DNA of 64,000 nucleotides from Escherichia phage vB_EcoM_HZ_ZJUN4: the sequence record PP216085. One strand, 5' to 3'. Both the position numbers and the translations under genes were made by a program. Of this stretch, positions 21,879 to 24,311 are shown piece by piece. Below the pieces are notes generated by a model. It saw nothing but the letters and a program-made list of their open reading frames with translations. It was not told where the DNA came from and ran no database searches. Within the stretch, counting starts at the first letter, position 1; each line of letters opens with the position of its first letter.

Positions 21879-21908
21879 GTTTACTTTTCCTCTTGACTGT
21901 GGTATAAT
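21879..21908 (+). promoter_or_regulatory. early promoter
   Basis: CTGTTTAC ... GTGGTATAAT. Confidence 0.6.
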
Positions 21909-22404: not shown

Positions 22405-22950
22405 ATGAGAAAAGCACTACTCGCTGGTCTATTGGCCATTTCAATGATGGCACATAGCTCCGAGCATACTTTCAGTAATGTCCAACTCGATAACATGCGT
22501 TACGCGTATCAATTCGGGGAACAATTTTCTAAGGATGGAAAATATAAAACACATAAAAATATCCACAAGAGCGGATTAGGTCATATAATGGCTGCTATTT
22601 TATGGCAAGAAAGCTCTGCCGGAGTTAATTTAAAATCTAAACCAAAGCATCATGCCTACGGAATGTTCCAAAATTATTTGCCAACTATGCGAGCAAGAGT
22701 TAAGGAACTTGGTTATAATATGACCGATGCCGAAATAAAAAGAATGTTGAATAAACGGTCCAATTCAGCTTCCTGGGCGTACATTGAACTTTCTTATTGG
22801 TTAAATATACATAAGGGCGATATAAGAAAGGCAATATCCTCTTATAATTCGGGATGGAATGTTAAAGCAGGTTCTAAATATGCTTCTGAAGTCCTAGAAA
22901 AGGCTAACTACCTTAAAAATAATAAACTACTGGAAATAGTAAATGACTAA
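22405..22950 (+). CDS. secreted lytic transglycosylase-like protein (181 aa)
   Basis: Signal peptide MRKALLAGLLAISMMAHS; SLT-like motifs AILWQESSAG and HAYGMFQ. Confidence 0.65.
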   Translation: MRKALLAGLLAISMMAHSSEHTFSNVQLDNMRYAYQFGEQFSKDGKYKTHKNIHKSGLGHIMAAILWQESSAGVNLKSKPKHHAYGMFQNYLPTMRARVKELGYNMTDAEIKRMLNKRSNSASWAYIELSYWLNIHKGDIRKAISSYNSGWNVKAGSKYASEVLEKANYLKNNKLLEIVND

Positions 22951-23284
22951 AATTTTGGTTTTATGTGTAGGATTAATTTCATTTTCTGCGTTAGCAAATA
23001 CATCATACACTGAAATTAGAGAGTATGCAAACCGTACTGCCGCGGATTATTGTGGGAAAAATAAAGCATGCCAAGCTGAATTTGCACAGAAATTAATATA
23101 TGCATATAAAGACGGAGAAAGAGATAAATCAAGCAGATATAAAAATGATACTTTATTAAAACGATATGCTAAAAAGTGGAATACCTTAGAATGTTCAGTT
23201 GCGGAGGAGAAAGATAAAGCCGCTTGTCATTCAATGGTTGACCGTTTGGTAGATTCTTATAATCGAGGATTGAGTACTAGATGA
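22943..23284 (+). CDS. secreted small protein (113 aa), possibly vs
   Basis: Signal peptide MTKILVLCVGLISFSALA; four Cys; size near T4 Vs (115 aa) but identity unverified. Confidence 0.5.
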   Translation: MTKILVLCVGLISFSALANTSYTEIREYANRTAADYCGKNKACQAEFAQKLIYAYKDGERDKSSRYKNDTLLKRYAKKWNTLECSVAEEKDKAACHSMVDRLVDSYNRGLSTR

Positions 23285-23760
23285 TTGTAAAATATATCAA
23301 GGGCGATATTGTCGCCCTATTTCTTCAAGGTAATATTATTGCGCACGGATGCAACTGCTTCCACACAATGGGCTCTGGTGTAGCGGGTCAATTAGCAAGA
23401 GCCTATCCTAAAATTTTAGAAATAGATAAAACCACTACCGAATACGGTTCTCGTGATAAATTAGGCGATATGTCTATTGTTTTTAAGCATAGCCCTACGG
23501 GATTTGGTATATGCTATAACCTGTATACACAATACGAACCGGGTCCTAATCTTGATTATGGTGCTTTAGTAAATTGCATGATAGAATTAAATCTACAGGC
23601 AGAAACCCTTTTGTTTAAACCAGTAATTTACATTCCACGCATAGGTTGCGGTATTGCTGGAGGCGATTGGGATAAGGTTTCTAAATTAATCGACATGTTT
23701 ACTCCTGATATTGATTTAATAGTGGTGGATTATGAAAGTACATTACCCGCATCCGTTTGA
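23281..23760 (+). CDS. macrodomain protein (159 aa)
   Basis: GDIVALF...IIAHGCNCFHTMGSGVAGQL and later IPRIGCGIAGG match the macrodomain ADP-ribose-binding signature pattern. Confidence 0.7.
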   Translation: MIVKYIKGDIVALFLQGNIIAHGCNCFHTMGSGVAGQLARAYPKILEIDKTTTEYGSRDKLGDMSIVFKHSPTGFGICYNLYTQYEPGPNLDYGALVNCMIELNLQAETLLFKPVIYIPRIGCGIAGGDWDKVSKLIDMFTPDIDLIVVDYESTLPASV

Positions 23761-23944
23761 CCCTAAAAATAAAGCGGAAATTATTCGTCAATGGGAACGC
23801 ATTTGCCGTACTAAATGCCCAATTAATAGTCCACATGATGTAGATAAAGACTACATCGGAACATTCGTTGAATATACCTTTATTGATAAGAAAGGTCGTA
23901 AACAACATGTAGAAGAATATTGCTTAAAGGTTACATGGTTATGA
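23732..23944 (+). CDS. hypothetical protein (70 aa)
   Basis: ORF overlapping the macrodomain gene end; Cys-containing. Confidence 0.45.
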   Translation: MKVHYPHPFDPKNKAEIIRQWERICRTKCPINSPHDVDKDYIGTFVEYTFIDKKGRKQHVEEYCLKVTWL

Positions 23945-24126
23945 GTTTAAGTAAAGAACAAAAAGACAGACTGTTTTCTCTTATTCACGAAGTTATTGAT
24001 AAAAATAGTGAATTGGAAAAAGTTTGCGATGAATGCGGTCCTTTTAATACCGACGAATACGAAGAACTGTGTAAAGATTTCGACGATAAAGAACAAGAAC
24101 TTATTGATTATATAAATTCCTTATGA
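23941..24126 (+). CDS. small acidic helical protein (61 aa)
   Basis: ATG overlapping upstream stop; member of a small paralogous family. Confidence 0.55.
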   Translation: MSLSKEQKDRLFSLIHEVIDKNSELEKVCDECGPFNTDEYEELCKDFDDKEQELIDYINSL

Positions 24127-24311
24127 TTACTCGCGAACAAAAGAATGAAATACGATTTTTAATCAGCGAAATTATTAGTTTAGAACGAGATTTATCTTTT
24201 GAATTGGCTTCGGATTATGGAGATGCTGAAACATACTACGAATTAGTAAAATCTATCGATAAAGCTGAAAATGATTTAGAAACATATTTAGAAAATTTAA
24301 CTAAGGACTAA
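24123..24311 (+). CDS. small acidic helical protein (62 aa)
   Basis: Paralogue of the preceding ORF (similar length, EQK...L(I/V)SEII pattern). Confidence 0.55.
   Translation: MITREQKNEIRFLISEIISLERDLSFELASDYGDAETYYELVKSIDKAENDLETYLENLTKD

What the first reader, a model, noticed from the sequence alone, without database searches (positions are those of the whole stretch)
23281..23760. Phage-encoded macrodomain protein
The 159-aa ORF carries the macrodomain glycine-rich ADP-ribose-binding pattern (GDIVALF...HGCNCFHTMGSGVAGQL, later IPRIGCGIAGG). Macrodomains remove or bind ADP-ribose; in a lytic phage this could reverse host ADP-ribosylating defence toxins (for example DarT-type DNA ADP-ribosylation) or sequester or degrade ADP-ribose-derived immune signals. 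It sits in the early vs-tk accessory block next to secreted proteins.
Basis: partly seen in the sequence, partly recalled or inferred. Interest (0 to 1): 0.6.

Follow-up and report, generated by a model that had tools for sequence, protein, structure and literature searches.

The report
T4-family anti-DarT2 macrodomain (Tk.4/AdfM)
This gene is a real macrodomain enzyme, the counterpart of phage T4 gene tk.4 (AdfM), which was recently shown to protect T4 from the bacterial DarTG2 defence that tags DNA with ADP-ribose, so the finding is correct but already known.

Summary
The 159-aa ORF at 23281-23760 (+) exists as described and is a confident macrodomain. It scores 32 bits against Pfam Macro (cut-off 22). 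A family profile matches solved macrodomains at E=1e-19. The AlphaFold2 model has pLDDT 94, and Foldseek matches TARG1, Poa1p, BT1257 and DarG with probability 1.0.

The window is a T4-like phage (Tequatrovirus). The ORF sits between vs and tk.3, which is the slot of T4 tk.4. A 2025 preprint (HIDEN-SEQ) showed that T4 tk.4 is the single gene needed to resist DarTG2 and renamed it adfM.

Two details go beyond the annotation:
- **Catalytic residue.** This family lacks the catalytic lysine of DarG and TARG1. It has an invariant glutamine (Q84), as in Streptomyces SCO6735, which removes thymidine-linked ADP-ribose from DNA.
- **Diverged allele.** The window carries an allele only 58% identical to the tested T4 protein, while the flanking genes are 96-99% identical in protein (dS 1.86 against 0.10-0.16). 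This points to a cassette exchanged by recombination.

No biochemistry exists for this allele. Verdict: ordinary and already known, with low interest.

The parts
23281..23760 (+). tk.4/adfM orthologue: stand-alone 159-aa macrodomain of the ALC1-like class, Gln type. Residues invariant in 118 homologues are H22, G23, N25, C26, G33, A35, D49, N80, Y82, Q84, P119 and W130. The diphosphate-binding loop is P119-RIGCGIAGG-128.
23290..23751 (+). Sharply bounded divergent cassette. Nucleotide identity to T4 is 43-85% here, against mostly 93-100% upstream and in tk/rI. The tk.3-tk.1 stretch downstream is partly lower, at 83-92%. dS is 1.86 against 0.10-0.16 in regB, vs.1, vs, tk and rI, and dN/dS is 0.20.
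22943..23284 (+). vs (valyl-tRNA synthetase modifier), the upstream gene. Its stop codon overlaps the macro gene's ATG (ATGA), which suggests co-transcription and translational coupling.
23732..23944 (+). tk.3 (DUF7202), the downstream gene. It overlaps the 3' end of the macro gene by 29 nt in this allele, against 4 nt in T4.
21880..21908 (+). Best sigma-70-like promoter match upstream of the regB-vs.1-vs-tk.4 gene run (TTTACT-17-TATAAT with an extended TG). It is a candidate early promoter for the block, based on a consensus match only.

Best explanation
The ORF is the Tequatrovirus tk.4/adfM gene, carried here as an allele class that differs from the one in reference T4. It encodes a single-domain macrodomain of the ALC1-like class (TARG1, DarG, SCO6735, Poa1p, BT1257).

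The most likely mechanism is as follows. The gene is expressed with the regB-vs block. The protein binds ADP-ribose attached by the host toxin DarT2 to thymidines in single-stranded phage DNA. It then hydrolyses the ribose-base bond, which restores DNA that can be replicated and so cancels DarTG2 abortive defence.

Chemically it should work like SCO6735 rather than like DarG. The position of the catalytic lysine (DarG K80, TARG1 K84) holds an invariant glutamine (Q84), and TARG1 D125 is replaced by A126. Catalysis is therefore presumably water-mediated, with Q84, N25 and H22 positioning the distal ribose.

Shown here: the fold, the class, the conserved residues, synteny with T4 tk.4, and the recombinant nature of the allele.
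Shown by others for the T4 allele: the genetic requirement against DarTG2.
Inferred: enzymatic removal of T-ADPr by this protein, the mechanism, and the timing of expression.
For: - **Macrodomain fold and class:**
- **Weak but specific matches to DarG models over the macro part only:** NCBIfam NF048014 at 1.5e-6 and PADLOC DarG at 5e-7.
- **Synteny.** The order regB, vs.1, vs, [ORF], tk.3 ... tk, rI is identical to T2 and T4, where the slot is annotated tk.4. BLASTP to T4 Tk.4 gives 58% identity, E=1e-70, with no gaps over 155 aa.
- **Genetics on the orthologue.** T4 tk.4 is the sole DarTG2-conditional essential gene, and its knock-out is DarTG2-sensitive. T4 and T2 lacking adfA and adfN stay DarTG2-resistant, which had predicted such a factor.
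- **Catalytic position.** Q84 aligns with TARG1 K84 and A126 with TARG1 D125. Q84, H22 and N25 are invariant in 118 homologues.
- **SCO6735 precedent.** SCO6735 has Gln85 at the K80/K84 position, the Q85A mutant is dead, and the enzyme cleaves dT-ADPr on DNA and protects against DarT (PMC9411070).
- **Shared loop.** SCO6735 and BT1257 share the PRIGCGxAGGxW loop with the window protein.
- **Selection.** dN/dS of 0.20 between the two alleles shows that both are kept under purifying selection.
Against: - No biochemical or genetic test exists for this allele, which is 58% identical to the tested one.
- The evidence for the T4 allele comes from a preprint and is genetic only. Enzymatic removal of ADPr was proposed there, not shown.
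- The DarG catalytic lysine is absent, so DarG-like chemistry cannot simply be transferred.
- The protein also conserves the residues mutated in yeast Poa1p (H23 aligns with H22, S30 with T29), so a small-molecule phosphatase activity is not excluded.
- SCO6735 also inhibits DarT by direct interaction when catalytically dead, so protection need not be purely enzymatic.
Confidence: 0.72

Rival explanations
1. ADP-ribose-1''-phosphate phosphatase, or another enzyme that processes small soluble ADP-ribose derivatives. This is the historical annotation ('phosphatase', 'A1pp motif'). It would be Poa1p-like, clearing by-products of RNA repair or degrading ADPr-derived immune signals.
For: PHROG 335 is labelled 'phosphatase' and the T4 record notes an 'A1pp phosphatase motif'. 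Yeast Poa1p is among the best sequence and fold matches. Comparison of mutant and wild-type chains shows that Poa1p H23 aligns with H22 and S30 with T29. [quoted passage not shown]
Against: In T4 the orthologue gives a specific DarTG2 phenotype. No KptA/Tpt1-type source of Appr1p was noted beside the gene. The 'phosphatase' label is an annotation transferred by similarity, not a tested activity. The closest Gln-type relative that has been characterised, SCO6735, acts on DNA and protein adducts.
Confidence: 0.1
2. A protein or RNA de-ADP-ribosylase. It would erase modifications placed by other host defence ADP-ribosyltransferases, or tune the phage's own Alt, ModA and ModB enzymes.
For: TARG1 and SCO6735, the nearest characterised relatives, both remove ADPr from proteins as well as DNA. 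T4-like phages are known from the literature to encode three ADP-ribosyltransferases; this rests on my own knowledge and was not examined in this window.
Against: By established knowledge, Alt and Mod enzymes modify arginine, a linkage that macrodomains are not known to cleave. The TARG1 Lys/Asp dyad used for Glu/Asp-linked ADPr is absent. The T4 screen found the gene conditionally essential on the DarTG2 host.
Confidence: 0.1
3. A mainly non-catalytic protector. It would bind ADP-ribose or ADP-ribosylated DNA, or bind and block DarT2 directly as an antitoxin mimic, without needing hydrolysis.
For: Catalytically dead SCO6735 Q85A still inhibits DarT efficiently by interaction. Other phage anti-DarT factors (AdfA, AdfB) neutralise the toxin rather than repair its product. 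The deep allele dimorphism would fit co-evolution with a protein partner.
Against: The residues invariant across 118 homologues are the active-site ones (H22, N25, Q84 and the Gly-rich loops). That pattern is expected for an enzyme. The protein lacks the C-terminal DarT-binding domain of DarG, being 159 aa and macrodomain only.
Confidence: 0.06

Closest known systems
Phage T4 Tk.4 = AdfM (anti-DarT factor Macrodomain), bioRxiv 10.1101/2025.11.20.689424
   Same: It occupies the same genomic slot, between vs and tk.3. It has the same single-domain architecture and a similar length (159 against 155 aa). Identity is 58% with no gaps, E=1e-70. It has the same invariant residues, including Q84.
   Different: It belongs to a different allele class. 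dS is 1.86 against about 0.1 in the flanks. The C-terminus is four residues longer and overlaps tk.3 by 29 nt. The window-type allele (at least 90% identical in 312 phage records) has not been tested against DarTG2.
Streptomyces coelicolor SCO6735 (PDB 5E3B), a stand-alone ALC1-like macrodomain that cleaves thymidine-linked ADP-ribose on DNA
   Same: It has Gln at the catalytic position instead of Lys, and the same PRIGCGxAGGxW loop. It is stand-alone, with no DarT-binding domain. The PDB match is E=8.5e-8 with the single sequence and 1.6e-15 with the profile.
   Different: It is a bacterial housekeeping or DNA-damage-induced gene, not a phage gene. Sequence identity is low. It has a longer mobile loop carrying Lys89 and Lys94, and equivalence of that loop was not tested here.
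DarG antitoxin macrodomain (T. aquaticus 5M31/5M3E, M. tuberculosis 5M3I) and the chimallivirus AdfM (PhiKZ gp104)
   Same: It has the same macrodomain class and fold (Foldseek TM 0.73-0.78). The proposed substrate, DarT2-made T-ADPr on ssDNA, is also the same.
   Different: DarG and PhiKZ AdfM use a catalytic lysine (K80 and K78), whereas the window protein has Gln. DarG has a C-terminal DarT-binding domain and is encoded next to darT, and neither is true here. The NCBIfam DarG score is 27.7 against a cut-off of 250.
Human TARG1/OARD1 and yeast Poa1p
   Same: These are the best fold matches. They share the N-terminal H-x-x-(N/S) and G-x-G loops and the PRIGCG loop.
   Different: TARG1 K84 and D125 are replaced by Q84 and A126. 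These are eukaryotic enzymes that act on protein-linked ADPr or on Appr1p.

Membership tests
Macro domain superfamily (Pfam PF01661) | Scores above the curated Pfam gathering threshold over nearly the full model | tested here: met
   32 bits against a cut-off of 22, profile positions 2-117 of 118
Macro domain superfamily (Pfam PF01661) | Three-layer alpha/beta/alpha macrodomain fold | tested here: met
   AF2 model with pLDDT 94.3 and pTM 0.89. Foldseek probability 1.00 to many solved macrodomains, with 164 hits at E<=0.001.
Macro domain superfamily (Pfam PF01661) | Binds ADP-ribose | not testable with these tools
   Only the Gly-rich loops (G31-S-G33 and P119-RIGCGIAGG-128) can be seen, and they are conserved.
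ALC1-like macrodomain class (TARG1, DarG, SCO6735, Poa1p) | Closest sequence and structure relatives are members of this class rather than MacroD, PARG or viral Mac1 types | tested here: met
   The top 20 Foldseek hits are TARG1, Poa1p, BT1257 and DarG. Coronavirus Mac1 and other classes rank lower. The profile-against-PDB search gives the same order.
T4 Tk.4/AdfM anti-DarTG2 factor | Positional orthology: encoded between vs and tk.3 in a Tequatrovirus genome | tested here: met
   Gene order is identical to T2 and T4, and flanking DNA is mostly 93-100% identical to T4.
T4 Tk.4/AdfM anti-DarTG2 factor | Full-length sequence homology to T4 Tk.4 | tested here: met
   58% identity, 74% positives, no gaps, E=1e-70
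T4 Tk.4/AdfM anti-DarTG2 factor | Loss of the gene sensitises the phage to DarTG2 | not testable with these tools
   Shown only for the T4 allele, in the literature.
DarG antitoxin (type II TA, NCBIfam NF048014) | Scores above the equivalog cut-off | tested here: not met
   27.7 bits against a cut-off of 250. Only model positions 2-142 of 338 are matched.
DarG antitoxin (type II TA, NCBIfam NF048014) | Catalytic lysine (K80) | tested here: not met
   Q84 occupies the position aligned to TARG1 K84, which is equivalent to DarG K80 according to PMC9411070. Q84 is invariant in 118 homologues.
DarG antitoxin (type II TA, NCBIfam NF048014) | C-terminal DarT-binding domain and an adjacent darT gene | tested here: not met
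   The protein is 159 aa and consists of the macrodomain only. Its neighbours are vs and tk.3.
SCO6735-type (Gln-type) DNA ADP-ribosyl hydrolases | Gln at the catalytic position, together with the conserved His, Asn and loop Gly | tested here: met
   Q84, H22 and N25 are invariant and G124 is at least 90% conserved. The loop PRIGCGIAGGDW matches PRIGCGLAGGTW of 5E3B. Equivalence of H22 and N25 to SCO6735 His24 and Asn27 is inferred from the H-x-x-N spacing, not from a displayed alignment.
SCO6735-type (Gln-type) DNA ADP-ribosyl hydrolases | Hydrolyses thymidine-linked ADP-ribose on ssDNA | not testable with these tools
Poa1p-type ADP-ribose-1''-phosphate phosphatase | His23 and Ser30 of Poa1p (the residues mutated in PDB entries 6LFS and 6LFT) | tested here: inconclusive
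   H22 aligns with H23, and T29 (a conservative change) aligns with S30. Conservation of these residues does not distinguish a phosphatase from a glycohydrolase.

The most novel reading that the evidence does not exclude
The deep allele classes of adfM are swapped as a roughly 460-bp cassette between otherwise near-identical Tequatrovirus genomes. They may be functionally non-equivalent. Each could be tuned to a different set of DarT2 variants or other ADP-ribosylating defence toxins, through direct toxin contact as seen for SCO6735, or each could escape a host factor that recognises AdfM. On that reading the window allele would have a counter-defence spectrum different from that of T4 AdfM.
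Probability: 0.15. Interest if true: 0.5.

Novelty: already known. Interest (0 to 1): 0.2.

Why it matters
DarTG systems stop phage replication by ADP-ribosylating phage DNA, and knowing which phage genes cancel them helps predict host range, for example in phage therapy. This gene's orthologue in T4 has already been identified as the anti-DarTG2 factor, and macrodomains are known to occur in about 41% of myoviruses (PMC9503650). The finding therefore confirms existing knowledge rather than extending it.

Two points are worth passing on to specialists. First, the T4-family AdfM proteins are Gln-type (SCO6735-like) rather than Lys-type (DarG-like or PhiKZ-like). This implies that phages recruited anti-DarT2 macrodomains from two different branches. 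Second, the gene exists as deeply diverged recombining alleles, of which only one has been tested.

Tried and rejected
- **'T4_ev240' is not reference T4.** I first took the 99%-identical protein of this record to mean that the window protein is T4 Tk.4 itself. The reference T4 record (NC_000866) showed otherwise: true T4 Tk.4 is the 155-aa allele, at 58% identity.
- **DarG membership** was tested and rejected. The score is far below the cut-off, there is no catalytic Lys, no C-terminal domain and no darT neighbour.
- **YmdB / 'RNase III inhibitor' / O-acetyl-ADPr deacetylase labels** appear in some records. I treat them as transferred annotation. The NCBIfam O-acetyl-ADPr deacetylase model scores 15.7 against a cut-off of 291, and the best structural relatives are not MacroD/YmdB-type.
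- **Displaying the N-terminal alignment to SCO6735 (5E3B)** with sub-sequence queries failed. Only the C-terminal loop was recovered.
- **The hairpin at 23300-23318** looked like a terminator in the consensus scan, but its folding z-score is only -1.8. I did not follow it further.
- **One bacterial homologue** (Pelagimonas) was checked for a darT neighbour and none was found. A single case does not settle where the phage gene came from.
- **A literature search for 'AdfM'** was swamped by unrelated word-start matches, but it still surfaced the chimallivirus paper.

Full report
**Observation.** The ORF is real. The ORF listing gives an ATG ORF at 23281..23760 (+) of 159 aa containing the quoted motifs. 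Its ATG overlaps the stop codon of the upstream gene (ATGA), and its 3' end overlaps the next ORF by 29 nt.

**Which genome.** The surrounding 2.5 kb is 98.6% identical to Tequatrovirus phages such as Escherichia phage EP01 and P922, and matches 733 phage records. The gene order in the window is regB, vs.1, vs, [ORF], tk.3, two DUF7438 ORFs, tk, rI.1, rI. This is the same as in T2 and T4, where the slot is annotated tk.4, 'phosphatase; contains A1pp phosphatase motif'. The ORF is therefore the positional orthologue of T4 tk.4.

**Is it a macrodomain?** Yes.
- Pfam Macro scores 32 bits against a cut-off of 22 and covers nearly the whole model.
- phmmer against PDB finds BT1257, yeast Poa1p, SCO6735, the M. 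tuberculosis DarG macrodomain and TARG1.
- A profile of 118 homologues (alignment A2) improves these matches to between 7.5e-19 and 5.9e-10.
- AlphaFold2 on that alignment gives pLDDT 94.3 and pTM 0.89.
- Foldseek against PDB returns TARG1, Poa1p, BT1257 and DarG as the top hits, with probability 1.00 and TM 0.7-0.83. Coronavirus and alphavirus macrodomains rank lower.

The protein belongs to the ALC1-like class. The NCBIfam and PADLOC DarG models match weakly, and only over their macrodomain part.

**What is already known.**
- A bioRxiv preprint of November 2025 (HIDEN-SEQ, 10.1101/2025.11.20.689424) infected a DarTG2-expressing host with a T4 transposon library. It found tk.4 as the single significant hit, confirmed that a clean knock-out sensitises T4 to DarTG2, noted the structural similarity to M. 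tuberculosis DarG, and named the gene adfM.
- An earlier paper had shown that T4 and T2 remain DarTG2-resistant without adfA and adfN, and predicted a further factor (PMC11825919).
- Independently, chimallivirus macrodomains (PhiKZ gp104), also named AdfM, were shown biochemically to remove T-ADPr from oligonucleotides and to protect against DarTG2 (PMC13309987).
- Phage macrodomains in general are common, occurring in about 41% of myoviruses (PMC9503650).

**Detail 1: catalytic residues.** In the profile alignment to TARG1, the family's invariant Q84 aligns with TARG1 K84, and A126 aligns with TARG1 D125. Q84, H22, G23, N25, C26, G33, A35, D49, N80, Y82, P119 and W130 are invariant in all 118 homologues. 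T4 Tk.4 also has Q84.

The SCO6735 paper states that Gln85 of SCO6735 is equivalent to TARG1 K84 and DarG K80. It also reports that Q85A abolishes activity, that the enzyme cleaves thymidine-linked ADPr on DNA and protects against DarT, and that the catalytically dead mutant still inhibits DarT by interaction (PMC9411070). SCO6735 and BT1257 share the loop PRIGCG(L/I)AGG(T/K/D)W with the window protein.

By contrast, DarG and PhiKZ AdfM are Lys-type (K80 and K78). The T4-family AdfM is therefore a Gln-type, SCO6735-like enzyme. It fails the DarG membership tests: score, catalytic Lys, C-terminal domain and darT neighbour. It probably still does the same job. By inference, phages recruited anti-DarT2 macrodomains from at least two branches of the class.

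**Detail 2: allele dimorphism.** The window protein is 58% identical to reference T4 and T2 Tk.4, although the flanking genes are 96-99% identical at the protein level.
- Sliding nucleotide identity to T4 is mostly 93-100% upstream and in tk/rI, and somewhat lower (83-92%) over tk.3-tk.1. It falls to 43-85% between 23290 and 23751.
- Nei-Gojobori estimates give dS=1.86 and dN=0.37 for tk.4, against dS=0.10-0.16 and dN=0.002-0.015 for regB, vs.1, vs, tk and rI. dN/dS is 0.20.
- Saturated synonymous divergence combined with purifying selection indicates an ancient allele moved in by recombination. It does not indicate fast adaptive change in place.
- In the phage collection, the window-type allele (at least 90% aa identity) occurs in 312 records. 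The T4-type allele occurs in 224 records, and a further class 80-90% identical to T4 occurs in 159.
- Only the T4-type allele has been tested experimentally. The record 'T4_ev240' carries the window-type allele at 99% identity, so it is not a proxy for reference T4.

**Mechanism.** The best-supported reading has confidence of about 0.7. The protein is made from the regB-vs-tk early block. It is translationally coupled to vs, and a promoter-like site lies at 21880-21908. It removes DarT2-placed ADP-ribose from thymidines of phage ssDNA by an SCO6735-like, lysine-independent hydrolysis.

The rivals are:
- a Poa1p-like Appr1p or small-molecule phosphatase (Poa1p H23 and S30 align with H22 and T29);
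- a protein or RNA de-ADP-ribosylase;
- a largely non-catalytic binder or direct DarT2 inhibitor.

None of these is excluded by sequence. The T4 genetics favours the DarT2 role.

**Verdict.** The feature is ordinary and already described for the orthologue. Interest is low. The residual novelty lies in the untested allele class and in the Gln-type chemistry.

Noticed in passing
window 23300-23318 (+): An inverted repeat, AGGGCGAT-ATT-GTCGCCCT, followed by a T-rich tail. It lies inside codons 7-13 of the macro gene, 20 nt after the start codon. It is identical in T4 and T2 although the rest of the gene has diverged. One GenBank record (OL631480) annotates a 'terminator' under this stretch. The folding z-score is only -1.8, so it may simply reflect the conserved KGDIVAL codons. 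It could also be an attenuator or coupling element between vs and tk.4.
   Followed up: partly
window 23732-23760: In this allele the macro gene runs 29 nt into tk.3, whereas in T4 and T2 the overlap is 4 nt. The right-hand cassette boundary therefore lies inside the tk.3 start region. tk.3 itself has a raised dS of 0.49 against T4.
   Followed up: partly
window 22405-22950 and 22943-23284: vs.1 has a Pfam SLT lytic transglycosylase domain (E=4.8e-5). Both vs.1 and vs begin with hydrophobic, signal-peptide-like N-termini (MRKALLAGLLAISMMAHS and MTKILVLCVGLISFSALA). An exported Vs fits poorly with its name, 'valyl-tRNA synthetase modifier'. The HIDEN-SEQ preprint reports vs as the most depleted T4 gene in minimal medium.
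   Followed up: no
window 23941-24311: Two adjacent small ORFs are paralogues of the same family, DUF7438. T2 and several other Tequatroviruses carry about 380 bp more, with two additional small ORFs, between tk.3 and tk.2. This stretch is 83-88% identical to T4, lower than the other flanking DNA.
   Followed up: no
L004 4001-4459 (Pelagimonas phthalicica, GCA_004364805.1): A bacterial homologue (P0094, 40% identical) is a stand-alone gene among unrelated housekeeping genes, with no darT-like neighbour. This fits an origin of the T4-family gene from orphan SCO6735/BT1257-like macrodomains rather than from a DarG antitoxin. It is a single example.
   Followed up: partly
hit H105 (Microbacterium phage record with a masked name): A 30%-identical macrodomain match lies under a CDS annotated 'ADP-ribosyltransferase'. 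This suggests either a macro-ART fusion or a mis-annotation in an actinophage.
   Followed up: no
L002 1388-1867 (LR597657, 'T4_ev240'): This record is named as an evolved T4, but it carries the window-type tk.4 allele (99% identical) rather than the reference T4 allele. It also has the extra small ORFs seen in T2. At this locus it is therefore a recombinant or a different Tequatrovirus.
   Followed up: partly
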